This document shows positions 1 through 11,759 of a DNA stretch of 12,596 nt, piece after piece; within the stretch, counting starts at the first letter, position 1, and each line of letters begins with the position of its first letter. The stretch is from IMG/VR virus record IMGVR_UViG_2695420714_000002. One strand, written 5' to 3'. Position numbers and translations under genes: made by a program. Source of the stretch: a virus. Lineage: Duplodnaviria > Heunggongvirae > Uroviricota > Caudoviricetes. The notes below the pieces were generated by a model. It did no database searches. It saw nothing but the letters and a program-made list of their open reading frames with translations, and was not told the DNA's origin.

Positions 1-44
1 GCCCGTTGACGGACTTCAGGGGAAAAACGAGTATTTTTAGTCAT
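1..44 (-). CDS. IS3-family transposase OrfA, N-terminal fragment (MTKNTRFSPEVRQR...), runs off the window
   Basis: ATG at 44..42 on the minus strand, preceded by GAGG about 9 nt upstream. The translation MTKNTRFSPEVRQR matches the N-terminus of IS629-family OrfA as I recall it. Confidence 0.7.
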   Translation of the reverse strand, partial: MTKNTRFSPEVRQR

Positions 45-98
45 CCTGTTTACCTCTTTCTCAGGAAGTTTAGTCTCCAGGATTCCCGGGGCGGTTCA
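1..98 (-). mobile_element. Left end of an IS3-family insertion sequence (IS629/IS1203/IS3411-like), partial; continues beyond the left edge of the window
   Basis: The minus strand from position 98 reads TGAACCGCCCCGGGAATCCTGGAGACTAAACTTCCTGAGAAAGAGGTAAACAGG followed by ATGACTAAAAATACTCGTTTTTCCCCTGAAGTCCGTCAACGGGC. From memory this matches the terminal inverted repeat and orfA leader of IS629-type elements, including the TG terminus typical of the IS3 family. The IS terminal TGA supplies the stop codon of the adjacent 371-aa ORF. Confidence 0.75.
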
Positions 99-1211
99 GT
101 TATATCGCTTTCCTGCTGCCTCAATGAATTTTTGTTGCCCTTTAGTCGCAGATTCATAAAGCTGTTTATCAGAAATGCCACCCAGACCATCGCTAAATGT
201 TCTGACTAAATTTTCTCGTGCTTGTTGTTGATTCAGCCGATTCTTACCGGTTCCAAAAAAAGGAACTCTTTCGCCTAATGTCTGAGCCTGACTCTGCATA
301 AAGGTTTTATCTTTCAGCATGTCACTGGTCATTAACGGCAGATTTCTTTCCGATGCAAAGTCGACAGCAGCCTTTGCTTCAGGCGACATATCACCACGAA
401 CAGCCCTCGAAACCGCACTCGCTGTATTTTCCAGCCCCTTACCAATACCACCAATGCCAGCAGAAATTACCGTTTGTAACGGATCAATATCTTCTCCACC
501 AGCCTTGCTGGTGGCTCCCTGTAGTGCTAAATCTGTAGCTGCTGATTTTCCTATGGCACCAAGCACCGTTCCAGCCCTGCCCGCTGGTGTAAACGCCAGC
601 GCATTAGCCAGAAACGAAGTCAGGTCTTGCGGTGATAAACCCGGCTTGTTCAGGGCATAATCACCTGATGGCAGAGAAACGATAGTATTCCCCTTCTCAT
701 CCTGCCTTAATGTCGCCCCCATGCCCTGAAGAATCTTTTCCTGAGACGCGTCAGAGCCGAAAAGTTGAGACCATCCAGCCTTCAGGGCATCCATGCTTAG
801 TGAGTTCAATTCTGGGGCAGAGGCGACATTTTGCAGTCTCTCCATCTCTGGAGTCATTCGGCTTTCGCCTGTTATAGCATCGCGCATCGCAGTCCCAAGA
901 CTGGCTCCCTGTTCTGCTGAACGCTCAAGCCCCTCTCTTTGCTGAGTAGCTAACTTTGCATACCCTGACGCAAGAGAATTATCAGATGATGTATGTTGAA
1001 TATTTTGAGTTGCTGATTGGGAGCGGTCTATTTCATTCGTAGATGGTAGTGGATAGGCAGCATAAAAAGCCTGCTTAGCCTGCTCTACACTTTCTCCGGC
1101 TTGCGGGGCCACGACTTCATTGAAGTATTGCTCCTGAGCCTGCACTTTTTGTTCTGGTGCTAACGCCTGATACTGTGGAGAGGCGATAACATCTTTCCAT
1201 GCTTTAGCCAT
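96..1211 (-). CDS. Putative phage ejection (DNA-transfer) protein, P22 gp16-like by synteny, C-terminally truncated by the IS insertion (371 aa)
   Basis: Complete ORF in the track, last gene of a coupled four-gene cassette; its start overlaps the stop of the upstream gene by 1 nt. Ala/Gly/Gln/Ser-rich, low-complexity composition. The stop codon is the first 3 nt of the IS end, so the natural C-terminus is missing (P22 gp16 is about 609 aa, from memory). Assignment rests on size, order and composition only. Confidence 0.45.
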   Translation of the reverse strand: MAKAWKDVIASPQYQALAPEQKVQAQEQYFNEVVAPQAGESVEQAKQAFYAAYPLPSTNEIDRSQSATQNIQHTSSDNSLASGYAKLATQQREGLERSAEQGASLGTAMRDAITGESRMTPEMERLQNVASAPELNSLSMDALKAGWSQLFGSDASQEKILQGMGATLRQDEKGNTIVSLPSGDYALNKPGLSPQDLTSFLANALAFTPAGRAGTVLGAIGKSAATDLALQGATSKAGGEDIDPLQTVISAGIGGIGKGLENTASAVSRAVRGDMSPEAKAAVDFASERNLPLMTSDMLKDKTFMQSQAQTLGERVPFFGTGKNRLNQQQARENLVRTFSDGLGGISDKQLYESATKGQQKFIEAAGKRYN

Positions 1212-2632
1212 TAATCACCCCATAGTGAAGAAAAATTACTGCTGGCTGCTGGCTGTGATACCTGCTCAGATTGCGGCAATGTCTGCGACGAAGAAGAAGT
1301 TCCTCTGTCAACTGCTGAAATAACACGCAAAGCATCATAAGCTCGACCAGAAGCAGCTTTCAGCGAATTGAACTGGTTTTCCATCTTCCGGCGCTTGGTA
1401 TCAATGGTTTTTGTGGAGTCGCCAGGCTGAGGGAAATACATTTGATAATATTTTGACATTTCAGCAGGTACGATAGCTGCCCCTGTTTCCTGACGGAGTA
1501 TTGCCATTATTGCGTCATTAGCATTAACAACGTATTGCTGCTCTGTTGGGCTGAGCGTTAAGTTAGCCAGCGTCCCATTACCCAAAGCATTATTAATGAT
1601 CGCCACTCGCTGTGGGCTAAGCTGGCCTTTCAGTGTATCCATTGAATCAAGAGCATCCCTAACTCTGTATGCAAATCCAGCAGCTTTTTTAGCCCCTTCT
1701 GGCGACTTTTCCATGATCTTTTGGGCTGTTGGCAAAGCTATTGGACGAAACCCATCTCCAGATATTGGCTGGTTTAGTTTTCCCTGCTCTTCACTTCCGT
1801 CTGTGTAGTATTTTGTGACAGTGCCATCATCGTTTTCCCTAACACTCATTAATTTTTTGGCGTTTGTATTAATTCCAGCCGCTGCCGCAAATGCCGCTGC
1901 CCCCTCTGGATCCGCCTTTAACATTTGCGCGTACTGATTGTAATTCTGCATTGCGGCTGTTGGTGCATATGCTGACGTTAACGCATTTGCTCGGCTAATA
2001 TCCTGCCCTCTCGCCTGAAGCGCCTCTCCAGCCTGATTGCTGCGGATTGTCTCTGCCAACTTGCCACGCTCAATATCCCGACCTTCCATTCGATCTTTGA
2101 TATCGAAGTACTTCTCATGACCGAGAGAAAACAGTGCCATACTACCAGCAAGCCGCTGGAATTCCTGTGGATCATTAACATGCATTTCGGCAACAGACTC
2201 AGGAGAAATTCCCAAGCGACGCATTTCATCTTCGTTATCTGCTATGAATTTTCCAAATGCCCCAGTTCCGAGCGAAGATGCGATTTGAGCACTAGTCGCA
2301 AGATGACCAATAGAATTTCTCTGGTCGTCATCAATAAAGCCCATCCCTTTCTGAACGCTTTCAAATTCTTCTGGATACTCAGAAATAAGACTGCGCATTT
2401 TGTTTCTGTCTCCAGACTCAAAAGCCCCGGCATATGCTTTCTGAAACTCTGCTTTACGCTGTTGTTGACGTGCCTGCTGATTAATCTCAGCAACGCCTCT
2501 TAGCCCCTGTAGCGCCATTAAACCTACGTTTGGCTGCTGCTGAAACTGCACAGGCTGAGGAACGGAAGAACGAGGAGCATTATCATTTTGCGGTACCATG
2601 CTAGGCAGCCCGCCAAGTTGCCATGTCGCCAT
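1211..2632 (-). CDS. Putative phage ejection (DNA-transfer) protein, P22 gp20-like (473 aa)
   Basis: 473-aa ORF. Overlaps the upstream gene stop at 2632 and the downstream gene start at 1211 by 1 nt each. Size matches P22 gp20 (about 471 aa, from memory) and it sits between gp7-like and gp16-like genes. Gln/Ala-rich, predicted helical. No similarity search was possible. Confidence 0.5.
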   Translation of the reverse strand: MATWQLGGLPSMVPQNDNAPRSSVPQPVQFQQQPNVGLMALQGLRGVAEINQQARQQQRKAEFQKAYAGAFESGDRNKMRSLISEYPEEFESVQKGMGFIDDDQRNSIGHLATSAQIASSLGTGAFGKFIADNEDEMRRLGISPESVAEMHVNDPQEFQRLAGSMALFSLGHEKYFDIKDRMEGRDIERGKLAETIRSNQAGEALQARGQDISRANALTSAYAPTAAMQNYNQYAQMLKADPEGAAAFAAAAGINTNAKKLMSVRENDDGTVTKYYTDGSEEQGKLNQPISGDGFRPIALPTAQKIMEKSPEGAKKAAGFAYRVRDALDSMDTLKGQLSPQRVAIINNALGNGTLANLTLSPTEQQYVVNANDAIMAILRQETGAAIVPAEMSKYYQMYFPQPGDSTKTIDTKRRKMENQFNSLKAASGRAYDALRVISAVDRGTSSSSQTLPQSEQVSQPAASSNFSSLWGD

Positions 2633-3309
2633 TAGAATCCAAGCCCCCCAACAAGACCAATAAGCCCACCACCAATAGCCCCGGCGACATTACCTATACC
2701 CGGAACAACGGAACCAAGTTGCGCACCCGCTAAAGCGCCTGATGCCGCCCCACCAATACCACGCGCAAGACTGGATGGCTGCTGCGCCTGACCTGCACGA
2801 ATAGCGCCAAGCCCCTGCAAGAGTTGTCCGGTATTATTGGCGTAGTTTTGCCCTGCTGTTGCCTGCCCTGATGCCGCATTCATCCCGACATTTAGCAGGT
2901 TTCCATAATTTTGCATTTGCCCACTAAGCCAATTGTTATAAAGCATGGGCGCAATGGAAGATAACTGGTTACTGGTAGCTGTTGAGCCAAGCCCCCCGGT
3001 AGCTTCTGCTGAGACAAGGTTCTGATAACGGGCCTGATCTGCCTGTGTTTTATATAAACCAGAACCAAAGAAATCATTCGCGGCTTTATTCTGCCCTTCC
3101 AGAGTCATCAGTCCTTGTAGTTGTTGTAAAGCAGGCAATCCGACTTCTGCATACGGCTTGAGATTATTCATCACCGTATTCCACTGCTCGCGCTGCAAAT
3201 CAATTGCCTGCTGCTGGGCCTTCGCCTGAGCTTTAGAGGCACCACCATCACCGCCTTTTTCGTATACGGCACGATTGAGATGTTTATGAGCTATATGGGT
3301 AATTAACAC
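2632..3309 (-). CDS. Putative phage ejection (DNA-transfer) protein, P22 gp7-like (225 aa) with glycine-zipper hydrophobic C-terminus
   Basis: 225-aa ORF; P22 gp7 is about 229 aa (from memory). The C-terminal 40 residues are GIGGAASGALAGAQLGSVVPGIGNVAGAIGGGLIGLVGGLGF, a GxxxG-rich hydrophobic segment. Overlaps the upstream gene by 7 nt. Confidence 0.5.
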   Translation of the reverse strand: MLITHIAHKHLNRAVYEKGGDGGASKAQAKAQQQAIDLQREQWNTVMNNLKPYAEVGLPALQQLQGLMTLEGQNKAANDFFGSGLYKTQADQARYQNLVSAEATGGLGSTATSNQLSSIAPMLYNNWLSGQMQNYGNLLNVGMNAASGQATAGQNYANNTGQLLQGLGAIRAGQAQQPSSLARGIGGAASGALAGAQLGSVVPGIGNVAGAIGGGLIGLVGGLGF

Positions 3310-3764
3310 TCGCTGAATTCCTTATATTGTTGCCGAGTTAACTGATAAAGCGTTACGCCGACGGGTTTACCACATCTGATATAAGCATCATCAAGGTGAC
3401 CAACACGGGTAGCGCCAAGCAAACTGATAATTGCCCGTCCGTATTTCGTTGTGTCAGGAACCATGGTAATGCTGTTAAGGAATGGTGAGTTTTCGAGAAG
3501 CCATTTGCAGAATAATCGATGCCCTTGCAGTGCATATTCACCACGGAATCCGGGGTCGTACACCGCATGGCATTCAACAATGCTATGCCAGAAGTTACGC
3601 ACTTCATGAACGCCAGCCAGCACCAATCCTTCGTAGATACCGAGATATACCGCATCAGGCTTGATGTAGTACGTGTGCCCCGGCTCAACAATATTTTCGG
3701 TATTGCCAGGCTCGTTGAGAAAGGCCTGTAATCGCACAGGGTTATCAATAAATTTTAGTTCCAT
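3303..3764 (-). CDS. Hypothetical 153-aa protein, P22 gene-14-like position upstream of the ejection-protein genes (alternative: small acetyltransferase-like protein)
   Basis: 153-aa ORF, first large gene of the cassette; translation MELKFIDNPVRLQAF...YIRCGKPVGVTLYQLTRQQYKEFSEC. Weak SD (GGATGG) upstream of the ATG at 3764. The family assignment is an inference from synteny. Confidence 0.45.
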   Translation of the reverse strand: MELKFIDNPVRLQAFLNEPGNTENIVEPGHTYYIKPDAVYLGIYEGLVLAGVHEVRNFWHSIVECHAVYDPGFRGEYALQGHRLFCKWLLENSPFLNSITMVPDTTKYGRAIISLLGATRVGHLDDAYIRCGKPVGVTLYQLTRQQYKEFSEC

Positions 3765-3780
3765 GCGATGCCATCCATTT

Positions 3781-3942
3781 TCACATACAGCCTGCCAGCG
3801 CCTTATCTATTAACCCTCGTGCAATTTCATGCAGAGTTGGCGCTACTCCAATTCCTGATTTTTTACGCTGCTCTTCCTGAATTTTCTTTATCGCTTCCAT
3901 TTGCTTCTCACTTATCAATACCGGCTTTACTGAAATAGCCAT
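3781..3942 (-). CDS. Small 53-aa protein with ribbon-helix-helix-like residue pattern (not in the ORF track, below its size cutoff)
   Basis: ATG at 3942..3940 with a strong SD (AAGGGGG) about 5 nt upstream; stop TGA at 3783..3781, 16 nt before the 153-aa gene start. Translation MAISVKPVLISEKQMEAIKKIQEEQRKKSGIGVAPTLHEIARGLIDKALAGCM shows a short beta-strand-like segment followed by two helix-like segments, as in Arc/MetJ/CopG proteins. Confidence 0.45.
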   Translation of the reverse strand: MAISVKPVLISEKQMEAIKKIQEEQRKKSGIGVAPTLHEIARGLIDKALAGCM

Positions 3943-3969
3943 AACGCCCCCTTAGAACTGTATAAAACA

Positions 3970-4010
3970 ACAGTTATTATAGTTTCACAAATCGCAATAT
4001 TCATCATCGT
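3970..4010 (-). promoter_or_regulatory. Candidate sigma70-type promoter for the 53-aa ORF and ejection-protein cassette
   Basis: Minus-strand TATAAT (plus-strand attata at about 3976-3981) lies about 30 nt upstream of the SD of the 53-aa ORF. The -35 region is weak. A 6-bp inverted repeat AACTGT-N8-ACAGTT (about 3956-3975) overlaps the predicted transcription start. Confidence 0.3.
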
Positions 4011-4037
4011 AATTGCAAAATATGAAACAGATAGCAC

Positions 4038-4070
4038 AAAAAAATGCCACCGCTCAGTAGCTGGTGGCAT
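4038..4070 (-). terminator. Rho-independent terminator closing the primase operon
   Basis: 8-bp stem ATGCCACC/GGTGGCAT (about 4044-4051 and 4063-4070) with an 11-nt loop. On the minus strand it is followed immediately by a run of 7 T (plus-strand A7 at 4038-4044). Confidence 0.5.
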
Positions 4071-4262
4071 CGTTCTGTGTGTCAGGTTTTGACAGGTTTT
4101 TTATGGACTCTAAAAACTATATTTATGGTGTCGCATTACTCTTCACGGCAGGCGCTTTTCAGTTCTGCCCTTGCTTCTGGCTCCATTGGTAATTTGATTC
4201 GCGATCAGCTATGCGGATGGTTTGCTGAACAGGTATAACAACTTCTCAGGGGCTGTTTTCTG

Positions 4263-4340
4263 AACTACGAAAATTTCGTAGTGCTCACTTTCAAAAACGT
4301 CACGCCCTTGTACACAGGATTTTACGAAAGTCTCGTAAAA
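4263..4340. promoter_or_regulatory. Two related palindromic operator-like sites sharing the half-site TACGAAA
   Basis: Site 1 at about 4263-4283: aaCTACGAAA-a-TTTCGTAGtg. Site 2 at about 4320-4340: TTTTACGAAA-g-TcTCGTAAAA. Their centres are about 57 bp apart, in the non-coding region between the primase stop and the terminator. Confidence 0.4.
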
Positions 4341-4389
4341 CACTCTCTGATGCCAGCCAGGTGTTGTGCGCATCAATTCAGTCACATTG

Positions 4390-4501
4390 TGTTGGTTCAA
4401 AATACCGTGCTGTTGGTTCAGTGTTGGTTCAATAAAAAGAATAAAATTCTTATAAAACAATACTCTTTACAAATTGAACCAACTGAACCAACTGAACCAA
4501 C
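4390..4501. repeat. Iteron cluster: three direct and three tandem inverted copies of GTTGGTTCA flanking an AT-rich spacer; putative replication origin or cis-replication region
   Basis: TGTTGGTTCA at 4390-4399, 4411-4420 and 4422-4431. TGAACCAAC, the reverse complement, in perfect tandem at 4475-4483, 4484-4492 and 4493-4501. The roughly 43-bp spacer between them (4432-4474) is strongly AT-rich. The cluster lies directly downstream of the primase gene. Confidence 0.6.
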
Positions 4502-4526
4502 GCCTTTTCTACGCACATGAAGAAGC

Positions 4527-7286
4527 TCATTCTTCAGATGAGTTGTAATCTCCTGGCTGGTAATTGAGTACATAAACGTTTATTTGTCGTCCCTGAATAC
4601 GTGGTGATTTTCTTTGGTATCCACGACCGCTGTTTGGTGGGGTTAGCATCCCGGCTTTTTTCAACACTTCAGCAAACTGTTTTGCGTTGAAACCACATGC
4701 GATCTCCTTTTCAAATGTGGCCGGGAATGTGTAGAAAATCATTGGGCTTTCGTCATGTTCTCCACGCTGACGGTATCCGGCTAAATCTTTGATGGGCAAA
4801 TCTGCCGGGCTGTATGGAAATGGTGCAAAACGGCTAAGCCCATAGGCATTAAGAAATGCCTCCGTTTGTTCAATAATCTGCTGATGTTCTTTGTTACCTG
4901 TGCCGAACTCGCGCAACCATGCGTTATAGCTGTGCTGTATCGCATCACGGCATGTCTGAGCATCCCAGCCTGTTACAACCTCGCCTAACAGCAATGCGGC
5001 CTCCAGAATGGCAAATCGCGCGGCTACACGGTGAACCTGCTCACCATAATCGGATGGGATCAGACTTCTCCATCTGCTTTCGCAGTCACGAACAGTTTTA
5101 ATTGCCTGTTGCTGGTGGTCTGCCAGCCATTTAATCCACTCACGCCCGGCTGCGCCGTGGTGATGCTGGTAAGCGTCTTTCAGTGCGTCTGCGTGCTGTT
5201 TTCCGTTCTGGTAATCGTGAAAGCGTACTGCTTTACTCAACGGAATATTCAGCAGTCGCACCAGTTGCCCGGCTTTGGTTTTTCGCCCGGAAGTAGCGAT
5301 AAATGTTTCTAAATCCATTTCTCCGGTGCTGATTGCCACTGTACGCCAGCGTTTTAGATCCCGGTTTCCACCATCTTTAGCGCCTTGCAGTTTCCCTACA
5401 CCGTTAAATAACGCATAGGCAGACTGTGAAACACTGACAGGATCAGCGCCCTGACCAACTTCATCAAGCGGCATTAGTCCGTCATTGTGGGCGGCGGCTT
5501 CATTTGCCAGCCCCAGCGCGGTTCCGTACCACGTCAGCCGCAGTAAATCAGGGTTGCCGTATAAGCTGCTCGCCACGTTTGCCGTGGTGGTCTTACCTGC
5601 GCTCGACTGCTCATAGAAATGAATGCCGAACCCGTCAGCGCCCACCAGCCCAATCAATGGCGCTGCCAGTGCTGCGCCGATCCCGGTCATCATTGAATAG
5701 TTACCAAAGGCCAGACGCGCCACGTTATCACGCCAGCTTTTCGCGCTCCCTGAGACGGTATATCCGGCTGCGGCTGAGCTTCTCCCGCTGAACAGCACAG
5801 GATTTTCAGGTGTTCCGATGATTTCCCCATCAGGCATGATGTACGCTCCGCATTGCCAGCCAGTGGCATGAGCAACACGCCACAATTCACGAGAGCCACT
5901 GCGTTGTAGCCAGTCTGCCAGTATTGCTCTGAGGCTGCTTTTGGTCGTGACATTTACCCCACCAGCTTTAAGTGTGCGCCATCCTTCACGTTCACCAATA
6001 TCAGCCAGTGGAATGGCAGCGGTTGTCGGCGTTTCAGAACCAAACGACAGCCAGCGAAGAATGAGATACTGGTCTTTATCGTCTCTGCCAGTACCGATAA
6101 CGCTTAACGGAGAACATAACCAGCTTTCGTTATTGATGATTTCTCCACTCTGGCTGTCAGCTCTCGGAGATACCCAATAAATGCCATCCTCGCGGCTTTC
6201 TATTCTTGGTTTCAGTGGGTCGGTATCCATAACCTTAAAATCGCTTCCCTCAATGGTTTGTGGCTCCTGTTTCACGCCATTACCCTGTGGTTGGTACATT
6301 GACTTATTGAACGCTTCTGTGGCGCATTTAATGCCGTGTTTTTGGTGGTAATCATTCCAGTCTGCTTTGTGATCTGTCGGGGGTAATGCCACCCATCCAG
6401 AAACAGATAAAGCTGCTTTTTCTGCTGCTATTCTCCCCGTGTTTTGTCTTCCTTCGCTGTGGTCGTTATCCGCAGCAATGATGATTTGTGCTGAAGGAAA
6501 TTTATCCCGCAGTACCTGGGCGACATATAACAGGTTCCCGGCATCAATCGCCGCCACTGTCAGCGCCTCTGGACGCATTAAATGGGCAGATAATGCCGTT
6601 GCCAGCCCTTCTGCGATTAAGATGCTCTGTGTTGTTTCTGGTGCGTTTATGGCGTGATATGCCCCCCGCTTTGCTGAACCTATCAGGAGTCTTTTTTCAC
6701 CATGTGAGGTAATAGTCTGTGCTGCTGTTACTGCGCCGGATTTATCCACCAGCGCCAGCAACAGAGATCCATCGGGCAACACGGGGAATGTAAAATCACC
6801 TACCCCTTTCGCAACCAGATAATCAGATTTGCCGTTTACAGCCTTTCTGCGCATGTCATCAAACTGACGGGAAAACGTATCCCGTCTTTGTTGTTCGTCC
6901 TTCTCTGCCCTTTTCAGGCGCTCCTGTTCGCGTCGCTGGCGCTCGGTTTCCAGTTGTTCCCGTTTCTGGCTGGTGGCTTCTGGTGTTTCCGTTGTCCGGT
7001 AATCAATACCCAGAACATCAGCGGCAAGAAGCGCCGCCTCTGTTGTGTCGCAGTTATTTACGCGTTTAATTAAATCCAGCCCATCACCAGCGCCGCACTG
7101 ATTACAGATGAAGCTACCGCGCCCGTTGTCATCGAACCGGAATCGATCTTTGCCCCCACATGCAGGGCAGGGAGCATGACGGCGCGGAGAGTCAGGGACA
7201 TTTATGTTCAGGCAGCCCAGCACATGAGGCCAGTTGTTTTCAGACGCACTGATAACCTGACGGATAAGATCAATGTTTCGCATCAC
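4527..7286 (-). CDS. Phage/plasmid-type DNA primase with zinc-binding N-terminus, TOPRIM domain and C-terminal P-loop NTPase (P4 alpha-like architecture), 919 aa
   Basis: Zinc-finger-like CPACGGKDRFRFDD...CNQCG near the N-terminus; TOPRIM-like acidic motif IIIAADNDHSEG; Walker A-like FYEQSSAGKTT. The first codon is GTG at 7286 with an ATG at 7283; a G-rich SD lies upstream. The start overlaps the upstream 123-aa gene by 17 nt. Confidence 0.85.
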   Translation of the reverse strand: MMRNIDLIRQVISASENNWPHVLGCLNINVPDSPRRHAPCPACGGKDRFRFDDNGRGSFICNQCGAGDGLDLIKRVNNCDTTEAALLAADVLGIDYRTTETPEATSQKREQLETERQRREQERLKRAEKDEQQRRDTFSRQFDDMRRKAVNGKSDYLVAKGVGDFTFPVLPDGSLLLALVDKSGAVTAAQTITSHGEKRLLIGSAKRGAYHAINAPETTQSILIAEGLATALSAHLMRPEALTVAAIDAGNLLYVAQVLRDKFPSAQIIIAADNDHSEGRQNTGRIAAEKAALSVSGWVALPPTDHKADWNDYHQKHGIKCATEAFNKSMYQPQGNGVKQEPQTIEGSDFKVMDTDPLKPRIESREDGIYWVSPRADSQSGEIINNESWLCSPLSVIGTGRDDKDQYLILRWLSFGSETPTTAAIPLADIGEREGWRTLKAGGVNVTTKSSLRAILADWLQRSGSRELWRVAHATGWQCGAYIMPDGEIIGTPENPVLFSGRSSAAAGYTVSGSAKSWRDNVARLAFGNYSMMTGIGAALAAPLIGLVGADGFGIHFYEQSSAGKTTTANVASSLYGNPDLLRLTWYGTALGLANEAAAHNDGLMPLDEVGQGADPVSVSQSAYALFNGVGKLQGAKDGGNRDLKRWRTVAISTGEMDLETFIATSGRKTKAGQLVRLLNIPLSKAVRFHDYQNGKQHADALKDAYQHHHGAAGREWIKWLADHQQQAIKTVRDCESRWRSLIPSDYGEQVHRVAARFAILEAALLLGEVVTGWDAQTCRDAIQHSYNAWLREFGTGNKEHQQIIEQTEAFLNAYGLSRFAPFPYSPADLPIKDLAGYRQRGEHDESPMIFYTFPATFEKEIACGFNAKQFAEVLKKAGMLTPPNSGRGYQRKSPRIQGRQINVYVLNYQPGDYNSSEE

Positions 7287-7641
7287 CGTACCCCACGTGG
7301 TCTATAGCGTTTGCGATATGGCTAACCAGCATCTGCCACTTGGTTATTCCGTAATCAGTCAGCATGCCATCATTGTTTAGCCACATATCAAATTCAGCGG
7401 TTGTCGCAAGTTTCCACTTATCGCCGTGGACAGTCCTCATTGCTGGGTACATGAATGCGCAAATCAGATCACAAACATCTGACGGCTTCAGAGATGTAGT
7501 AATGGTGCGTCCCTCTGGCGTCTGAATTGCCATTTTCTCTTCACTAGTAGAATGAAGGTTATGAATCCACACAGCGCCAGCAATCTTTGCCACCTGCTCT
7601 CCGATTGCGGAGCTAAGCGCCATTTCTGCATTTTCACGCAT
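7270..7641 (-). CDS. Hypothetical protein (123 aa), translationally coupled to the primase
   Basis: ATG at 7641 with SD GGGAGG 5-6 nt upstream; 8-nt overlap with the upstream gene; the 3' end overlaps the primase start. Confidence 0.6.
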   Translation of the reverse strand: MRENAEMALSSAIGEQVAKIAGAVWIHNLHSTSEEKMAIQTPEGRTITTSLKPSDVCDLICAFMYPAMRTVHGDKWKLATTAEFDMWLNNDGMLTDYGITKWQMLVSHIANAIDHVGYGDAKH

Positions 7642-7975
7642 GAGAACCTCCCGCTACAGTTGCGCCCATGTCATTAACCATGCTTTGCCATATCTCACGC
7701 CCGACGTCAGTCAATCCGTCCTTAGTGACGCAACGATCAAGAAGCTCTATCACCACGGTTTCCCACTGCGGGTAGAACACTTTCATGGCTGCCAGTGTGT
7801 AGCTATCGATCAGGCTGCGAACGCCTTTTACTCCATTGACGATTTCCACACGGACGGCCTCGCCGTCCGCATCAACCATGAAATAGTCCCCGCCGCTGGT
7901 GGAGGTAATGTGGTTATACAGTGCCGACGCATACTTATTTGCCAGCGCATTCAGTCGGAAATTTTTAGTAATCAT
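7634..7975 (-). CDS. Hypothetical protein (113 aa)
   Basis: ATG at 7975 with GGAG/GAGGA upstream; 10-nt gap after the upstream gene stop; same-strand operon context. Confidence 0.55.
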   Translation of the reverse strand: MITKNFRLNALANKYASALYNHITSTSGGDYFMVDADGEAVRVEIVNGVKGVRSLIDSYTLAAMKVFYPQWETVVIELLDRCVTKDGLTDVGREIWQSMVNDMGATVAGGSHA

Positions 7976-7985
7976 GGCTCCATCC

Positions 7986-8588
7986 TCAGTGCGTCACTGG
8001 TTCCGCTGGCATGCCGTTTTCATTCAGTTCAGCTATAAAGCTGTTGTGAAGTTCAGCAAGCGTTTCACGACCAAATGGAGTCAGTGCTCCTTGTTCCACA
8101 TCCATCATGGCTCTGTAGAAAATGATGGCGCGTTCTGTGCCAGACTCGATGCCAAAACGTTCTATCATCGCGCCCTCAATGTTGTTTGCCATAGCGAGGC
8201 GCTCTGCTACTGGATACAGCGGCATGGCGACGATGCCGTTGGAATAAACAGCCACTTCGGAAGGATTGCCAGTATCATCAATGATGCTGACAGTGCCGTT
8301 TTCCTCTCTCATTTCCAGCATGAATACTGTTGCGATCAGCCATCTCCACATAATGACGTTATGCTGTGATGTGTAATCGAAATATCCTTGGTTGCCGCCA
8401 TCGGCAATAGCGAGATGTATTGACATACCTTCATCTGGTTTATCGTCATAATCCCCGGCATCCAGACGATTTACGGCATCAATATATGAAACGGCCTCAA
8501 CGCGTTCTGTCATGCCATCGTTGCTGCGGTGTATGATGTTTACGCCGTCAGGCGTTGCTTCTGCATGGAAGGTTAAGAAATTATTCAT
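7986..8588 (-). CDS. Hypothetical protein (about 200 aa; start re-called at the internal ATG, the track ORF extends to 8693)
   Basis: The track ORF 7986..8693 overlaps the upstream gene by about 110 nt. The internal Met (MNNFLTFHAEATPDG...) at about 8588 gives the ATGAATAA-type 8-nt start/stop overlap seen at other junctions in this operon, with GAGG upstream. Confidence 0.55.
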   Translation of the reverse strand: MNNFLTFHAEATPDGVNIIHRSNDGMTERVEAVSYIDAVNRLDAGDYDDKPDEGMSIHLAIADGGNQGYFDYTSQHNVIMWRWLIATVFMLEMREENGTVSIIDDTGNPSEVAVYSNGIVAMPLYPVAERLAMANNIEGAMIERFGIESGTERAIIFYRAMMDVEQGALTPFGRETLAELHNSFIAELNENGMPAEPVTH

Positions 8589-8802
8589 GTTTCGCCTCGC
8601 CTGAATGATTCTGTAACTCATATTTGCCCAACAATTCGTCTGCTTCCTGAATAGCTTCTGGTACGCCATTGAGCAGTGACATAACCGCGCCAATCATTAA
8701 CTTGTCTCTGTTGCTGGGGCTGGCCCCTTCAAGCCAGAACCCTAAAACAGTCTGAACCTGTTCGATGCGACATTGCGCTTCAATGAGCTGGATGTTGGTC
8801 AT
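8581..8802 (-). CDS. Hypothetical protein (73 aa)
   Basis: ATG at 8802 with SD GGAGAG about 6 nt upstream; ATGA-type 4-nt overlap with the upstream gene. Confidence 0.55.
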   Translation of the reverse strand: MTNIQLIEAQCRIEQVQTVLGFWLEGASPSNRDKLMIGAVMSLLNGVPEAIQEADELLGKYELQNHSGEAKHE

Positions 8803-9062
8803 TTCGCACTCTCCGCATCGATTAAACTGATATCTATCAGAGAGGTAACTTTTTGTAGCCAGCTAGTGATTACTGTCGCCTGTTCCCCTCCCACCGATGG
8901 AAGAATCTCATTCATCACATGAACCAGACCTGTGCGCGCTCTGGTAAGCCGTTCAGTCGTGCGATCTGCAAGAGTGAATGTGTCTGGATATGGCTCTTCA
9001 CGGCTCAGCAATGATTCAATTTCCAGCTCACACGGATGACGATAAATTAAGTTGATATTCAT
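8799..9062 (-). CDS. Hypothetical protein (87 aa)
   Basis: ATG at 9062 with a G-rich SD (GGGGG) about 7 nt upstream; ATGA overlap with the upstream gene stop. Confidence 0.55.
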   Translation of the reverse strand: MNINLIYRHPCELEIESLLSREEPYPDTFTLADRTTERLTRARTGLVHVMNEILPSVGGEQATVITSWLQKVTSLIDISLIDAESAK

Positions 9063-9253
9063 TTTTCACCCCCAAGAATTACCAGCTCTGCACGAGCATC
9101 GTTAACCAAAGATGAGCACGCTTTAATCGCATCCACGACATCAGCAGCGTCCATTTCTTCAGCCGAAAGACTGACAGCAACCAGGACAGCCGCTGCTTGC
9201 TCGATTAATTGAAGTGCGGACGTAAGTCGAGGGGCATTAATTGAGTTATTCAT
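9059..9253 (-). CDS. Hypothetical protein (about 64 aa; start re-called at the internal ATG, the track ORF extends to 9310)
   Basis: Internal Met ([10 protein letters not shown]...) at 9253 with AGGGG about 7 nt upstream and an 8-nt ATGAATAA-type overlap with the stop of the upstream 72-aa gene. The longer track start would overlap that gene by about 65 nt. Confidence 0.5.
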   Translation of the reverse strand: MNNSINAPRLTSALQLIEQAAAVLVAVSLSAEEMDAADVVDAIKACSSLVNDARAELVILGGEK

Positions 9254-9464
9254 TGGTTGCCCCTGTTTTTCCAGGCATTTCGCCACCTTCCAGCAGGAAA
9301 TGAACGTCACGAACGGCGAGATCCAATATCGCGAGTAACGCCTTCAGTTTTTCGTCTCGTGAGGGAGAGTTGCTCACCAGAATGTCATTAATCACTTCTG
9401 TCAGTGTGATGATCTGGCTTGTGCGTTCGAGGGGATCCATATGCACATCGTAGGTTTTAATCAT
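9246..9464 (-). CDS. Hypothetical protein (72 aa; [13 protein letters not shown]...), annotated here as an independent gene rather than the C-terminus of the 355-aa track ORF
   Basis: ATG at 9464 preceded by SD GGAGG with a 6-nt spacer. The start overlaps the stop of the 64-aa gene as ATGATTAA. The translated sequence is helical and protein-like, unlike the 355-aa frame immediately upstream of it. Confidence 0.6.
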   Translation of the reverse strand: MIKTYDVHMDPLERTSQIITLTEVINDILVSNSPSRDEKLKALLAILDLAVRDVHFLLEGGEMPGKTGATNE

Positions 9465-10313
9465 GTGCCACCTCCATGCGGATACGACCAGCAAAAAAGC
9501 AGACGTGATCGCGCACCAGAGAACGGCGAGCATCGCGTTCAGACTCGGCAGCAATATGATGAATTTTGGCGGTAATTGTCGGGCAATCGCGGCGAACTGC
9601 GGCGATAATCCAGATAAATTGCGGTTTTTGGGTAGGGGTAGTAGCCAGCATGTGGCAGCCTCCTTGTACTGGGAATTCTTCCCACCACCGGAGCTGCGAA
9701 ACTCGCTGGTGGTGGACTGAACAGAGTTCGCAGTACCGGCGTACAAGGAAACCGGCCAGCCTTTCGGCTGCCCTGTCCAGCCCACCATAATTTTGCAAGC
9801 GACGCGGATTATAACCACATCACTGAAAAAAGTGTGAGTCTGGCTAACGGCACAAAAAAAGACGCTCGGCGCGTCATGTGTCGCCTCGTACATTTCCGGG
9901 CTGCGAAACCCGGCACCCGTTTTATGAGGTGCCTTATAACCATAAACCGTGTTGCCGCATAACGACAAGCTCTTTTTTATGGACTCCGAAAACTCACTAT
10001 TGGAAGCACCAGATGCACAATACATCGCGCTCATTTCGTTAACGTCGCGCGTGTGGACGAAGGTTTTTGTGGAGCCACTACGCGAGCAGAGAAAGCCATC
10101 TACGACCAGAAATTCTCTGGCGCAGCCGCTGACCCTCTCAACGCTAACACCATCGACCGTAATTTCTGACATAGTTAAGGCATCCGCTCCTACCACCAGC
10201 AAATGATAAACCTTGCTTGCATCTGCTGTATTAATGCCTGATTTTGCTGTCATATTGCTGGATTTTTGCGACATACCAGCCAGTGAAAATATCTTCTTCT
10301 GGGCGGTTAGCAT
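9246..10313 (-). CDS. ORF with a strong start at 10313 (355 aa in the track); probably composite: an N-terminal hypothetical protein of about 150 aa that has lost its stop, or reads through, fused in frame across the leader to the 72-aa gene
   Basis: ATG at 10313 with SD GGAGG about 7 nt upstream and an ATGCTAA-type overlap with the upstream gene stop, so a real gene starts here. The frame stays open through a hairpin-T7 element, a TATAAT, a structured leader and the 64-aa gene in another frame. Both alternative frames hit stop codons shortly after the T7 tract. Confidence 0.3.
9457..9651 (-). CDS. Hypothetical protein (64 aa; [22 protein letters not shown]...), first gene of the small-gene/primase operon
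   Basis: Internal ATG of the 113-aa track ORF 9457..9798, preceded by a perfect SD (AAGGAGG) with about a 7-nt spacer. Its stop TAA overlaps the next gene's ATG. It lies in a different frame from the 355-aa track ORF, whose translation here is compositionally odd (Trp/Pro-rich). By my base count the ATG is at 9650..9648, one nt off the frame implied by the track. Confidence 0.5.
   Translation of the reverse strand: MLATTPTQKPQFIWIIAAVRRDCPTITAKIHHIAAESERDARRSLVRDHVCFFAGRIRMEVAHD
9653..9747 (-). promoter_or_regulatory. Structured 5' leader: nested hairpins with pseudoknot potential that occlude the SD of the 64-aa gene
   Basis: Outer 8-bp stem CCTTGTAC (9661-9668) with GTACAAGG (9740-9747); the mRNA arm overlaps the AAGGAGG SD. 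Inner 10-bp GC-rich stem 9681-9690 with 9705-9714, with a 14-nt loop. Loop sequence CTGCGAA (9694-9700) is complementary to TTCGCAG (9726-9732). Confidence 0.4.
9853..9874 (-). terminator. Terminator-like GC hairpin followed by a T7 run on the minus strand (candidate attenuator or intrinsic terminator)
   Basis: Plus-strand A7 at 9853-9859 followed by GACGC-tcggc-GCGTC at 9860-9874; on the minus-strand RNA this is a hairpin followed by UUUUUUU. The stem is only 5 bp, so this is weak. A TATAAT on the minus strand (about 9812..9807) follows it. Confidence 0.3.
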
Positions 10314-10489
10314 TTGTTAACCTCCGCGAACTCCTTCATGAAACGTGCCAGCGGTTGTACGCATGGCGATTGATACCCGTCGCGATAAAACGTCACTCGG
10401 TTGTGAGACACGCTTTCGACAGTAACGAGTGCTCCGTGGGCATCTTTGTAGCGTTTTTGAGGTTGTGGTGTTCCTGTCGGCTTAAACAT
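10307..10489 (-). CDS. Hypothetical small protein (60 aa; start re-called at the internal ATG, the track ORF extends to 10576)
   Basis: Internal Met (MFKPTGTPQPQKRYKDAHG...) at 10489 with SD GGAGG 6 nt upstream and an 8-nt overlap with the antirepressor stop (ATGTTTAA). The longer track start lies inside the antirepressor gene. Confidence 0.55.
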   Translation of the reverse strand: MFKPTGTPQPQKRYKDAHGALVTVESVSHNRVTFYRDGYQSPCVQPLARFMKEFAEVNKC

Positions 10490-11315
10490 GGACCGCCTCC
10501 AGACGCTTAGCGAGCCAGCGTTGCGACAGGCGGGTGAGTTCTCCTTTGCGCTGCTCATATTCCATGCCCATATCAATTAACGTGATATTGGTGCTTTCGA
10601 GATATGAGAGGTGCTCAAGCTGTTCTGCGTTCATATGGTCGCGAGGTTCGCCAGAATAGCCATTTATCCGCGCCCACTGCTTAGCAGTTAGCCCACCAAG
10701 AACGATACGAGAAATCATATTGCTCTCGTTTGTGTAGTGGTGTTGCTGCGTCGTTTTACCCATCTCGGCACGGGCCATATTCAGCGCATCGCACATTGGC
10801 TTAAAGTTGTTTGCGGCACTGATACGGGCTTTTAGCTGGCGACGATAGCGGGCGGCGATTTCAGGCACGCTACGCTGTAATTCTTCCTCGCACTGGATGA
10901 AATAACGGCGGATAGCGCGACCCTGATCATTGCGTTCGATCATTGCCAGTTCTTTCGCCATTCCGACACTTAACAGATAGTCTTTGCCGGGCCTGCCAGA
11001 CTGCTTAATCTTGCTGTAAGCCGCGCCATTCGGGCTTTTCCCCAAATTTGGGGAAATTGTTTTATGGACTGAGTAATCGCGCCCAATGGTGAAGTCATAC
11101 TCAGAGATGCGATCAGTGATCCATGTAGAGAAGTCTTTTCCCACGCCCAACGCTTTGTGTAACGCTTTTGCGCTAACAATATTGGTTTCACGCCCACCGA
11201 TATGACCAGGAATAACCGGGACAATTGCGGCAAATTCATTACCGTTAATTGTGCCCAGAAAGGCGTTCGGATGAGGGGCGGCCTCAGAAATTAATCTGCT
11301 TTTTTCGATGTTCAT
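10482..11315 (-). CDS. Phage antirepressor-like protein, AntA/AntB family (277 aa)
   Basis: Segments such as VSAKALHKALGVGKDFSTWITDRISEYDFTIGRDY and DYLLSVGMAKELAMIERNDQGRAIRRYFIQCEEEL match conserved AntA-type antirepressor motifs as I recall them. SD GGAGAC 8 nt upstream of the ATG at 11315. Confidence 0.6.
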   Translation of the reverse strand: MNIEKSRLISEAAPHPNAFLGTINGNEFAAIVPVIPGHIGGRETNIVSAKALHKALGVGKDFSTWITDRISEYDFTIGRDYSVHKTISPNLGKSPNGAAYSKIKQSGRPGKDYLLSVGMAKELAMIERNDQGRAIRRYFIQCEEELQRSVPEIAARYRRQLKARISAANNFKPMCDALNMARAEMGKTTQQHHYTNESNMISRIVLGGLTAKQWARINGYSGEPRDHMNAEQLEHLSYLESTNITLIDMGMEYEQRKGELTRLSQRWLAKRLEAVHV

Positions 11316-11327
11316 TTTCAGTCTCCG

Positions 11328-11759
11328 TTAGGCGGCGTTAAACGCGTCCGGGTAGAGTTTCAGAATGTCGGCAATTTCCTGCTGAGAAAGTCCGTTGTGA
11401 TCATTTATGTTCGCAAGATGGTTAACATGAGTGATCACTTTCAGAACATCACCACGGCAGGAGAAACGGTAGCGAAGGTGTGCTCCGATACCATCAGGAT
11501 TCTTTTCGTCGATACGCTCCAGAGTGATCCCAAGCTGGCGTTCTAACTCTGTTGCATAGTTACGACCAGAAGACAGACGGCAGTAGCGAAGAATGTCGTT
11601 TTCTGTCCATCCCTCTATACCAGTACGCAGCATATAGACTCGGGCGCGATGCTTTTTTGGTGTGCGCTTTGGTGCTTGAAGGGATTTTGTCAGGGGCGTA
11701 ACATCAGATACGCGAATATCTGAATTAGCCGCCTGTAATGGGCGGTTTTTCTTTTCCAT
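11328..11759 (-). CDS. Hypothetical protein (143 aa), translationally coupled to the AlpA-like gene
   Basis: ATG at 11759 overlaps the AlpA-like gene stop by 1 nt. Basic N-terminus (PKRTPKKHRAR). No recognisable catalytic motif. Confidence 0.55.
   Translation of the reverse strand: MEKKNRPLQAANSDIRVSDVTPLTKSLQAPKRTPKKHRARVYMLRTGIEGWTENDILRYCRLSSGRNYATELERQLGITLERIDEKNPDGIGAHLRYRFSCRGDVLKVITHVNHLANINDHNGLSQQEIADILKLYPDAFNAA

What the first reader, a model, noticed from the sequence alone, without database searches (positions are those of the whole stretch)
96..7286. A primase/regulatory module sits directly upstream of a P22-like ejection-protein cassette, with no head or packaging genes between them
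In P22-like phages the genes 14-7-20-16 follow the head genes and lie more than 15 kb from the replication genes. Here the cassette (by size 153/225/473 aa, order and composition) starts only about 760 bp after the primase stop, separated by an iteron region, a terminator and a promoter. Two explanations fit: (a) a deletion-derived defective prophage, consistent with the IS629-like truncation of the last gene; or (b) a satellite-like element that carries its own ejection proteins. The cassette assignment itself comes from synteny and size, not from a similarity search.
Basis: inference. Interest (0 to 1): 0.6.

Follow-up and report, generated by a model that had tools for sequence, protein, structure and literature searches.

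The report
Phage satellite carrying P22-type ejection genes
This stretch is part of a known kind of E. coli phage satellite (an EcCIMP1-like island that rides P22-like phages). It carries its own copies of the phage proteins that drill a DNA channel into the next cell; in this strain an insertion sequence has cut the last of those genes.

Summary
Genes 3303-3764, 2632-3309, 1211-2632 and 96-1211 (all on the minus strand) are true homologues of P22 gp14, gp7, gp20 and gp16. They start 762 nt after the stop of a Zn-ribbon/Toprim/DUF927 primase. An iteron origin, a terminator, a conserved promoter region and a 53-aa gene lie between them. No head, packaging, tail or lysis gene is present. An IS3-family element cuts gp16 at codon 371 of 701.

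This is not a deletion remnant of a prophage. Window 2472-11769 is 98.97% identical to EcCIMP1, a published island that is induced and transduced by the P22-like phage Kapi1 (Pick et al. 2025). The primase-cassette junction occurs in 239 of 5,426 complete E. coli genomes, at two or more integration sites, and also in Leclercia and Pectobacterium. The cassette genes are intact there and under purifying selection (dN/dS about 0.05-0.08).

The published paper noted "DNA transfer/DUF2824-like" genes and guessed a packaging role. I infer that they are loaded into helper capsids and give transducing particles a satellite-specified ejection channel. The satellite gp20/gp16 pair is only about 25% identical to the helper's own. 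The backbone resembles P4 (C4/CI-type RNA, alpha-like primase, iterons).

Verdict: a new member of a known kind, of moderate interest.

The parts
1..98 (-). Terminal 98 nt of an IS3-family insertion sequence (IS629-like inverted repeat TGAACCGCCCCGGG...). It abuts codon 371 of the gp16 homologue and supplies the stop codon.
   Evidence: 100% identical to ends annotated 'IS3 family transposase' in many E. coli genomes. All relatives begin to match at window 99. No complete genome shares the junction. The IS629 name rests on my own recollection of the inverted-repeat sequence.
96..1211 (-). gp16-type ejection (DNA transfer) protein. Only the N-terminal 371 of 701 aa remain, so it is a truncated pseudogene.
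   Evidence: phrog_770 E 1e-57 and phrog_29864 E 5e-133. 99.5% identical to residues 1-371 of the 701-aa protein of strain A30. 35% identical to Sf6 gp13.
1211..2632 (-). gp20-type ejection protein (periplasmic conduit), 473 aa, intact.
   Evidence: Pfam Inj_translocase 198 bits; phrog_917 E 1e-111. The best match in sequenced phages is APSE at 53%.
2632..3309 (-). gp7-type ejection protein, 225 aa, intact.
   Evidence: Pfam P22_gp7 244 bits. 57% identical to Kapi1 gp7 and 56% to P22 gp7. dN/dS 0.05-0.08 between satellite copies.
3303..3764 (-). gp14-type protein (DUF2824; 'head morphogenesis' or virion infectivity factor in P22-like phages), 153 aa.
   Evidence: Pfam DUF2824 205 bits; phrog_651. 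83% aa and 81% nt identity to the helper-type phage Kapi1.
3781..3942 (-). Conserved 53-aa first gene of the operon, with a strand-helix-helix pattern. Possibly a ribbon-helix-helix regulator (tentative).
   Evidence: Homologues of 43-100% identity sit just upstream of the variable module in about half of 157 related loci. The AF2 model shows an extended N-terminus plus two helices, pLDDT 78. No Pfam or Foldseek match.
3965..4030 (-). Conserved promoter/operator region: TATAAT at 3976-3981, inverted repeat ATTGCAA.../...TTGCGAT at 3982-3998 and 4012-4028, and a poor -35 box.
   Evidence: An alignment of 13 divergent family members conserves the -10 box and flanking repeats. Inverted repeat I5. 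No consensus sigma-70 site in the scan.
4038..4070 (-). Intrinsic terminator that ends the primase operon (ATGCCACC...GGTGGCAT followed by T7).
   Evidence: Terminator scan and sequence. The start/end given are read from the sequence; the scan's own coordinates are 4061-4046 and 4051-4030. The hairpin is conserved in close relatives.
4389..4501 (.). Origin-like iteron cluster: three direct and three inverted TGAACCAAC repeats around an AT-rich spacer, immediately 3' of the primase gene.
   Evidence: Six exact copies against 0.07 expected. Intact relatives have a second, inverted cluster upstream of perC.
4527..7286 (-). Primase/replication protein, 919 aa (Zn-ribbon, Toprim, DUF927).
   Evidence: Pfam and phrog_1139, E 6e-178. 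Relatives occur across the Enterobacterales.
7270..9310 (-). Six small early ORFs of unknown function (123, 113, about 200-235, 73, 87 and about 64-83 aa), conserved with EcCIMP1.
   Evidence: ORF list. phrog_37628 and phrog_1515, both of unknown function. RefSeq annotation of relatives.
9457..9651 (-). Icd-like small ORF (64 aa).
   Evidence: The tail of the 113-aa ORF 9457-9798 in the ORF list has the same 64-residue sequence as the EcCIMP1 CDS annotated 'host cell division inhibitor Icd-like'. A first attempt at 9467-9661, by simple offset, was out of frame.
9705..9792 (-). C4/CI-type antisense immunity RNA.
   Evidence: Rfam RF01695, 81 bits against a gathering score of 45, full length.
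9855..9932 (-). isrK-type Hfq-binding small RNA.
   Evidence: Rfam RF01394, 69 bits against a gathering score of 50, full length.
10307..11315 (-). AntA/AntB antirepressor-family protein (10482-11315) and DUF4222 protein (10307-10576).
   Evidence: Pfam AntA 77 bits; DUF4222 85 bits.
11328..11962 (-). AlpA-family HTH regulator (11759-11962) and a 143-aa unknown protein (11328-11759). AlpA is the master activator in EcCIMP1.
   Evidence: [quoted passage not shown] Window identity to EcCIMP1 ends at 11769, so this alpA is a different allele.
12077..12596 (-). 3' part of a 321-aa hypothetical gene that lies between alpA and the integrase in intact copies. The window ends inside it.
   Evidence: Annotation of the closest relatives at the yicC/dinD site. 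No PADLOC match for the 321-aa relative and no Pfam match for the 134-aa window ORF.

Best explanation
The window is the interior of an EcCIMP1-type phage-inducible chromosomal island, that is, a satellite of P22-like podoviruses. The whole element is about 18 kb and sits between yicC and dinD.

Shown by homology or by published experiment on a 99%-identical relative:
- When a P22-like helper such as Kapi1 is induced, AlpA switches the island on and its integrase excises it.
- The helper transduces the island.

Inferred from the anatomy:
- The Zn-ribbon/Toprim/DUF927 primase replicates the island from the iteron origin just 3' of its gene.
- A C4/CI-type antisense RNA, isrK and an Icd-like gene form a P4/P1-style immunity region upstream.
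- After a terminator, a separately regulated promoter drives a late operon: the 53-aa protein, then gp14, gp7, gp20 and gp16.

Inferred mechanism for the cassette:
- The four proteins are made in the helper-infected cell and incorporated into the helper's procapsids, as foreign E-protein sets are in P22 hybrids.
- Particles carrying about two headful-packaged copies of the 18-20 kb island then eject a satellite-specified gp7/gp20/gp16 channel into the next cell.
- The satellite's gp20/gp16 pair is of a different sequence type from the helper's. This would make delivery independent of the helper's own channel proteins, and might evade SieA-type exclusion, which targets exactly gp20 and gp16.

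In this strain an IS3-family insertion has cut gp16. A pair without gp16 is non-functional in P22, so this copy's cassette is probably dead.

Confidence by part: identity as an EcCIMP1-like satellite about 0.9; cassette proteins being virion-loaded ejection proteins that serve satellite transfer about 0.5; the SieA-bypass rationale about 0.25.
For: Identity:
- Window 2472-11769 is 98.97% identical to EcCIMP1.
- EcCIMP1 excises only with Kapi1, needs alpA and int, and is transduced by Kapi1 while a chromosomal marker is not (PMC11773190).
- Intact copies have an integrase, AlpA and a 23-bp att-like direct repeat, measure 18.3-20 kb, and have no structural or lysis genes other than the cassette.

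The junction is selected rather than accidental:
- It is present in 239 of 5,426 complete E. coli genomes.
- It occurs at two integration sites, yicC/dinD and tRNA-Thr/proA.
- It occurs in Leclercia, and in fused form in Pectobacterium.
- All cassette ORFs there are intact. dN/dS is 0.065 for gp14, 0.05-0.08 for gp7, 0.067 for gp20 and 0.084 for gp16, close to the primase value of 0.076.

Cassette identity.

Plausibility of loading into helper capsids:
- P22 hybrids incorporate and use the E-protein sets of Sf6, L, CUS-3 and HK620.
- gp16 and gp20 must be a matched pair, whereas gp7 can be swapped alone.
- SieA escape mutations map to gp16 and gp20 (PMC10883804).

Matching patterns in the satellites:
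- Satellite gp20 and gp16 co-vary as two types.
- A variant island keeps only gp20 and gp16.
- EcCIMP1 gp20 and gp16 are only 26% and 24% identical to its helper's. Its gp16 is 48-50% identical to HK620 gp16.

Origin: six exact iterons next to the primase gene.
Immunity RNAs.
Size: at 18.3-20 kb the island is about half the 39.4-kb helper genome.
Against: - No experiment shows satellite E proteins in particles.
- The helper already makes its own set, so the need for a second set is unexplained.
- EcCIMP1 transfer is inefficient, about 5e3 particles per ml (PMC11773190).
- Kapi1 has no annotated sieA, so the bypass idea has no support in the one tested pair.
- EcCIMP1 instead increases superinfection immunity of lysogens by an unknown gene, which fits a defensive role equally well.
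- No pac-site mimic or terminase gene was found, so the packaging step is unknown.
- dS is saturated, so the dN/dS values are rough.
- The window copy itself lacks half of gp16. Everything beyond it (second iteron cluster, perC, attR) is out of view.
Confidence: 0.6

Rival explanations
1. The cassette is a defence or interference device. Satellite ejection proteins would poison the helper's or a superinfecting phage's DNA-delivery channel, either made in the cell or co-assembled into helper virions. This would give the host superinfection immunity or cut helper spread.
For: EcCIMP1 adds to superinfection immunity of Kapi1 lysogens, and the responsible gene is unknown (PMC11773190). Mismatched gp16/gp20 combinations assemble into P22 virions but give non-infectious particles (PMC10883804). 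The satellite pair is very unlike the helper's, so mixed loading could be dominant-negative.
Against: Kapi1 titres from induced lysogens are unchanged by EcCIMP1. The operon lies behind a terminator and a non-consensus, probably activator-dependent promoter in the usual late or morphogenesis slot. All four proteins are kept full-length under purifying selection comparable to the primase, including gp14 and gp7, which are close to the helper's. No PADLOC match for the 53-aa protein, the one cassette-operon product scanned.
Confidence: 0.15
2. The genes form a packaging or capsid-assembly module, as the EcCIMP1 paper suggested. They would redirect helper packaging towards satellite DNA rather than acting in DNA ejection.
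For: They occupy the position downstream of the primase where other Gram-negative PICIs keep packaging genes (PMC11773190). Sister islands with the same primase carry an Sf6-type small terminase in this region. gp14 is annotated 'head morphogenesis'.
Against: The homologues are the P22 E proteins, and virions lacking an E protein fail at DNA delivery into the cell rather than at an earlier step (PMC10883804). That such particles still assemble and package DNA is my own knowledge. No terminase, HNH, Ppi/Rpp-like or capsid-size gene was detected in cassette-bearing islands. No pac-like similarity to the helper terS region beyond chance.
Confidence: 0.1
3. A defective P22-like prophage in which a deletion fused replication genes to the ejection genes, or a misassembly.
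For: This copy is IS-disrupted. Short stretches are 92-96% identical to P22-like phages, for example the Sf6 gene 12/13 junction at window 1043-1242.
Against: The same junction occurs in 239 complete (closed) genomes and in other genera. The element has its own integrase and att repeats. The replication module is a P4/PICI-type primase, not a P22-type O/P or gene 18/12 system. There are no remnants of any other P22 gene. A 99%-identical relative is mobile.
Confidence: 0.03

Closest known systems
EcCIMP1, the phage-inducible chromosomal island of E. coli MP1 (Pick, Stadel & Raivio, ISME J 2025; PMC11773190; GenBank OR778291)
   Same: 98.97% nucleotide identity over window 2472-11769. The gene order is the same: AlpA, 143-aa ORF, AntA/B, DUF4222, 'ash'/Icd region, small ORFs, primase, 53-aa ORF, DUF2824, gp7, gp20, gp16. 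Both have the iteron origin.
   Different: The window's element sits at yicC/dinD rather than tRNA-Thr/proA. The integrase at that site is only distantly related to EcCIMP1's, as judged indirectly: the Kapi1 integrase matches the EcCIMP1 integrase at 49% but the yicC-site integrase at 25%. The window also has a different alpA allele. Its gp20 is 48% identical to EcCIMP1's over the N-terminal part only, and its gp16 type is unrelated: 701 aa, against 906 aa with an SLT domain. Its gp16 is cut by an IS. The paper calls these genes 'DNA transfer/DUF2824-like, maybe packaging' and does not identify the complete 14-7-20-16 cassette.
Ejection-protein operon 14-7-20-16 of P22-like phages (P22, Sf6, HK620, Kapi1)
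   Same: The same four families in the same order with overlapping reading frames. Mosaic variation of gp20 and gp16 is as described for the phages (PMC10883804).
   Different: In the phages the operon follows the head and tail-needle genes inside the late operon, about 16 kb from the replication genes. Here it has its own promoter and a 53-aa leader gene, 762 nt after a primase, in an element without a capsid. The satellite gp20 and gp16 alleles have no close match in sequenced phages: at best 53% to APSE and 66% to phage N7.
Satellite phage P4
   Same: Integrase, an alpha-like primase, a C4/CI-class antisense immunity RNA upstream of the primase, two separated iteron clusters reminiscent of ori and crr, and a small late operon aimed at the helper's virion. 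The P4 features are cited from my own knowledge.
   Different: No sid, psu or delta homologues were detected. The helper type is a P22-like podovirus, not P2. The late operon encodes ejection proteins rather than capsid-size and transactivation functions. The primase is of the DUF927 type here; a sister island has the DUF5906 type.
Classical Gram-negative PICIs (EcCICFT073, EcCIEDL933) and capsid-forming PICIs
   Same: The int-alpA-primase layout, PerC-family gene, size class and helper dependence (PMC11773190).
   Different: Those islands carry packaging-redirection genes (Rpp/Ppi, TerS) or capsid genes. This lineage instead carries virion DNA-delivery proteins in that slot.

Membership tests
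P22-type ejection-protein cassette (gp14/gp7/gp20/gp16) | Each protein matches the family profile above the curated threshold. | tested here: met
   DUF2824 205 bits against 25; P22_gp7 244 against 28; Inj_translocase 198 against 29.7. The gp16 part matches phrog_770 at E 1e-57 and is 35% identical to Sf6 gp13.
P22-type ejection-protein cassette (gp14/gp7/gp20/gp16) | Co-oriented gene order 14-7-20-16 as one tight operon. | tested here: met
   Coordinates 3764>3303, 3309>2632, 2632>1211 and 1211>96, with overlapping stop and start codons.
P22-type ejection-protein cassette (gp14/gp7/gp20/gp16) | A complete gp16, which is required for DNA delivery in P22. | tested here: not met
   Only residues 1-371 of 701 remain and an IS3-family end follows. 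The gene is intact in relatives.
P22-type ejection-protein cassette (gp14/gp7/gp20/gp16) | The proteins are packaged in virions and ejected on infection. | not testable with these tools
   This needs particle proteomics or genetics. Foreign sets do assemble into P22 (PMC10883804).
EcCIMP1-like PICI (phage satellite) | Near-identity and synteny with the experimentally validated element. | tested here: met
   98.97% over 9,308 bp with the same gene order.
EcCIMP1-like PICI (phage satellite) | An integrase at one end and flanking att direct repeats. | tested here: met
   These are outside the window. In the closest intact copies a tyrosine integrase lies next to yicC, and the 23-bp repeat ATTATGTACACC(TC/CT)TATGTACACG bounds an 18.3-kb element.
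EcCIMP1-like PICI (phage satellite) | An AlpA-family regulator, plus a primase or replication protein with an adjacent origin. | tested here: met
   Phage_AlpA 34 bits against 21. Primase domains. Six iterons 3' of the primase gene.
EcCIMP1-like PICI (phage satellite) | No phage structural or lysis genes. | tested here: inconclusive
   No terminase, portal, scaffold, coat, tail or lysis genes were found. However, the ejection proteins are themselves virion components, so the usual criterion is met only in part.
EcCIMP1-like PICI (phage satellite) | Helper-dependent excision, replication and transfer. | not testable with these tools
   Shown for EcCIMP1 with Kapi1 (PMC11773190), not for this allele. 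This copy is IS-disrupted.
P4-like satellite | The sid/psu/delta late genes and a P2-type helper. | tested here: not met
   Pfam and PHROGs scans of the main window ORFs listed in the parts returned no Sid, Psu or Delta family. The late operon encodes ejection proteins.
P4-like satellite | A CI/C4-class immunity RNA and an alpha-type primase with iteron ori/crr. | tested here: met
   RF01695 81 bits. Primase. Two iteron clusters in intact copies.
Defective P22-like prophage | Remnants of other P22-like modules (head, tail, lysis, immunity, O/P-type replication). | tested here: not met
   tblastn with 25 Kapi1 and P22 proteins gave hits only to the integrase and excisionase-like genes of relatives.

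The most novel reading that the evidence does not exclude
This primase lineage of enterobacterial satellites keeps a swappable 'DNA-delivery slot' behind a conserved small gene and promoter. In some members the slot holds P22-type gp14/7/20/16, or only the matched gp20+gp16 pair. In others it holds SLT 'lytic tail' or internal-virion proteins, baseplate hub and spike proteins, or a small terminase. The satellites would use these proteins to re-arm hijacked virions with their own cell-envelope penetration apparatus. This could make entry independent of the helper's alleles and let the island enter cells protected by SieA-type injection blocks, that is, the helper lysogens in which a satellite can later be mobilised. 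That would be a satellite strategy distinct from capsid-size redirection, packaging redirection or capsid formation.
Probability: 0.25. Interest if true: 0.7.

Novelty: new member of a known kind. Interest (0 to 1): 0.4.

Why it matters
Phage satellites are known to steal capsids, redirect packaging or build their own heads. None has been shown to bring its own DNA-ejection machinery.

The EcCIMP1 family is common, present in about 4% of complete E. coli genomes. It keeps a complete P22-type ejectosome operon, under selection, that differs in type from its helper's. If these proteins are loaded into particles, satellites can change how and into whom hijacked virions inject DNA. That would affect the transfer of virulence regulators such as PerC, and it would offer natural experiments on gp20/gp16 compatibility and on SieA-type exclusion.

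For genome annotation there are three practical points:
- Such loci are satellites, not 'incomplete prophages'.
- The 'hypothetical' 225-aa gene is gp7.
- The long 'ash family' ORF overlies two small RNAs.

Tried and rejected
- Pac-site or terS mimicry. blastn and k-mer comparison of EcCIMP1, the A30 element and the window with Kapi1 gave only the gp14/gp7 homology. The one other hit was a 17/18-nt match, present twice in EcCIMP1, to Kapi1 terS (E 2.3). That is not significant.
- Hidden packaging or structural genes. tblastn with Kapi1 and P22 structural, lysis and SieA proteins, and Pfam/PHROGs scans of the ORFs distal to gp16, found nothing relevant.
- Defence-system content. PADLOC on ten proteins gave only a weak hit of the AntA/B protein to candidate PDC-S22.
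- Fold of the 53-aa protein. The single-sequence AF2 model is helix-loop-helix with an extended N-terminus, but Foldseek against the PDB was uninformative. The ribbon-helix-helix idea therefore stays tentative.
- Consensus sigma-70 promoter before the cassette. None was found by the scan. The promoter claim rests only on conservation.
- Source strain. No complete E. coli genome has the IS/gp16 junction.
- Literature. Full-text searches for satellites or PICIs with ejection or injection proteins found only the EcCIMP1 paper's brief remark.
- P22 gp14 function. I could not retrieve a primary statement, only truncated annotation notes ('absence ... results in reduced particle ...').
- Co-occurrence of the island with P22-like prophages in the same genomes could not be computed with these tools. 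The paper reports 2 of 21.

Full report
**Observation**

Every substantial ORF in the window is on the minus strand.
- 3303-3764 is a DUF2824/gp14-family protein.
- 2632-3309 is a P22_gp7 protein.
- 1211-2632 carries the gp20 Inj_translocase domain.
- 96-1211 matches PHROG 'DNA transfer protein' families, that is, gp16.

BLASTP against real phages gives the following:

| Protein | Best identities |
|---|---|
| gp14 | 83% Kapi1, 23% P22 |
| gp7 | 57% Kapi1, 56% P22 |
| gp20 (N-terminal part) | 47% Sf6, 38% P22 |
| gp16 (N-terminal part) | 35% Sf6 |

The primase at 4527-7286 has Zn-ribbon, Toprim and DUF927 domains. The 762 nt between it and gp14 contain:
- six exact TGAACCAAC iterons, three direct and three inverted around an AT-rich spacer, against 0.07 expected;
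- an intrinsic terminator, read from the sequence at about 4038-4070;
- a TATAAT at 3976-3981, also read from the sequence;
- a 53-aa ORF at 3781-3942.

The consensus scan finds no sigma-70 promoter. However, the -10 box and flanking repeats are conserved in 13 divergent relatives.

Window 1-98 is the end of an IS3-family element. It cuts gp16 after codon 371 of 701.

No terminase, portal, scaffold, coat, tail, lysis or SieA homologue exists in the window or in complete relatives.

**What it is**

Megablast against 5,426 complete E. coli genomes finds at least 80% of the window in 186 genomes at 97-99% identity. Every match starts at base 99.

In strains A30 and ARS-C301 the element lies between yicC and dinD. 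It has a tyrosine integrase at one end and a PerC-family gene at the other. A 23-bp imperfect direct repeat bounds 18.3 kb.

A literature search led to EcCIMP1 (PMC11773190), a 19,963-bp island at tRNA-Thr/proA in E. coli MP1. EcCIMP1:
- excises and circularises only when the P22-like prophage Kapi1 is present;
- needs its integrase and alpA;
- is transduced by Kapi1, whereas a chromosomal marker is not.

Window 2472-11769 is 98.97% identical to EcCIMP1. The window is therefore the interior of an EcCIMP1-like satellite with a different integration module and different gp20/gp16 alleles.

**Is the junction an accident?**

No. Several results argue against it:
- A 2-kb probe across the primase/gp14/gp7 junction is at least 80% covered in 239 genomes.
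- A scan of one genome per species, and of IMG/VR, with the primase found the full cassette next to a related primase in Leclercia adecarboxylata and in further contigs. In Pectobacterium, gp20-like and gp16-like parts are fused in one 1,425-aa protein.
- E. coli ST167 and ETEC H10407 carry a variant with only gp20 and gp16. H10407 also has a different primase type, DUF5906.
- All cassette ORFs in these copies are intact.
- Between E. coli and Leclercia copies, dN/dS is 0.065 for gp14, 0.05-0.08 for gp7, 0.067 for gp20 and 0.084 for gp16. The primase value is 0.076. dS is saturated, so these are rough values, but they are clearly far below 1.
- The IS/gp16 junction of the window occurs in no complete genome, so the truncation is a private, late event.

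**Backbone**

Rfam finds a full-length C4 antisense RNA (81 bits) and an isrK RNA (69 bits) at 9705-9932. Both lie inside the ORF that RefSeq calls 'ash family protein'. An Icd-like ORF follows.

Intact copies carry a second, inverted iteron cluster upstream of perC.

Together with the alpha-like primase, this resembles P4 in immunity and replication. No sid, psu or delta genes were detected.

**How the cassette probably works**

Leavitt et al. (PMC10883804) established four relevant points:
- P22 accepts and uses whole foreign E-protein sets.
- gp16 and gp20 must be a matched pair, while gp7 can be exchanged alone.
- The prophage exclusion protein SieA blocks injection by acting on gp16 and gp20.
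- The HK620 set partly escapes SieA.

The satellites mirror this logic:
- Their gp20 and gp16 co-vary as two types.
- The minimal variant keeps exactly this pair.
- EcCIMP1's gp20 and gp16 are only 26% and 24% identical to those of its own helper. Its gp14 and gp7 are 83% and 57% identical to the helper's.
- EcCIMP1's gp16 is 48-50% identical to HK620 gp16.
- The window-type alleles have no close match in sequenced phages, although short segments have been exchanged with them.

I therefore infer that the late operon supplies a satellite-specified ejection channel, which is loaded into helper procapsids and used when the island is delivered. Independence from helper alleles, and possibly evasion of injection blocks, would be the selective reason. 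The island's size, about half the helper genome, fits headful packaging of about two copies without capsid remodelling.

None of this has been shown experimentally.

Rival readings:
- Interference or superinfection immunity. EcCIMP1 does raise immunity of lysogens.
- A packaging role.
- A deletion remnant. This one is effectively excluded.

**Wider pattern seen in passing**

In sister islands with the same primase and the same small leader gene, the slot holds other virion penetration proteins. These include SLT 'lytic tail' or internal-virion proteins, a baseplate hub and a Gp138-like spike, sometimes together with an Sf6-type small terminase. This suggests a helper-specific, swappable DNA-delivery and packaging module.

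**Verdict**

The satellite reading is right and the deletion reading is wrong.

The element belongs to a family described in 2025, so it is a new member of a known kind. What remains open, and moderately interesting, is why a satellite maintains a full ejectosome operon of a type different from its helper's.

Noticed in passing
window 9705-9792 and 9855-9932 (minus strand), inside ORF 9246-10313: Full-length Rfam matches to C4 antisense RNA (81 bits) and isrK (69 bits) lie exactly under the Pfam Phage_ASH domain of the 355-aa 'ash family protein' ORF. That ORF is probably an over-call of an RNA-based immunity region of the P4 CI / P1 C4 type. An Icd-like ORF follows at 9457-9651.
   Followed up: partly
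L001 8789-8909 and L002 12736-12856 (intact relatives; beyond the window's IS end): A second cluster of six TGAACCAAC iterons lies upstream of perC, inverted relative to the one next to the primase and about 7.5 kb away. The pair brackets the ejection cassette and is reminiscent of P4 ori and crr.
   Followed up: partly
L124 15065-19081; L009 14298-16085; L019 17927-22256: Sister islands with the same primase and the same small leader gene carry other proteins in the cassette's position: SLT-domain 'lytic tail' or internal-virion proteins, a baseplate-hub-like protein and a Gp138_N spike-like protein. L124 also carries an Sf6-type small terminase that is 66% identical to Kapi1 TerS.
   Followed up: partly
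L006 7400-10971 (E. coli ST167); L007 7526-10971 (ETEC H10407): A variant island at tRNA-Thr/proA keeps only gp20 and gp16, with no gp14 or gp7. In H10407 gp20 has an internal stop and the primase is replaced by a DUF5906 protein.
   Followed up: partly
L038 15130-19407 (Pectobacterium sp. B1J-3): A single 1,425-aa ORF combines gp20-like and gp16-like parts (phrog_2534 and phrog_770) downstream of a related primase.
   Followed up: no
L002 (EcCIMP1) 15481-19517 compared with L003 (Kapi1) and L167 (HK620): EcCIMP1's gp16 is 48-50% identical over about 737 aa to HK620 gp16, the type linked to partial SieA escape. It is only 24% identical to the gp16 of its own helper, Kapi1.
   Followed up: partly
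EcCIMP1 positions 1650-1667 and 3404-3421 (L002 12358-12375 and 14112-14129): Two copies of a 17/18-nt match to a site inside the Kapi1 small-terminase gene (18875-18892). The match is statistically weak (E 2.3), but the duplication makes it a candidate pac-like site worth testing.
   Followed up: no
window 3965-4030: The promoter/operator region upstream of the 53-aa gene is conserved across 13 divergent islands. Conserved features are the TATAAT box, TTGCAAT/ATTKCR repeats and an inverted repeat at 3982-3998/4012-4028. The -35 box is poor, which suggests activator control.
   Followed up: partly
window 10482-11315: The AntA/AntB antirepressor-family protein has a weak match (E 4e-11) to the PADLOC candidate defence family PDC-S22.
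   Followed up: no
L010 (record titled Chryseobacterium sp. 18061, contig NODE_4): A 79%-identical copy of this enterobacterial primase sits in a genome labelled Chryseobacterium. This probably reflects contamination or mislabelling of that assembly.
   Followed up: no
window 1043-1242 and 1041-2089: Short segments at the gp20/gp16 junction are 96% identical to Sf6 and about 92% identical to several E. coli P22-like phages. The rest of the genes is far more divergent. This indicates recent mosaic exchange between satellite and phage cassettes.
   Followed up: partly
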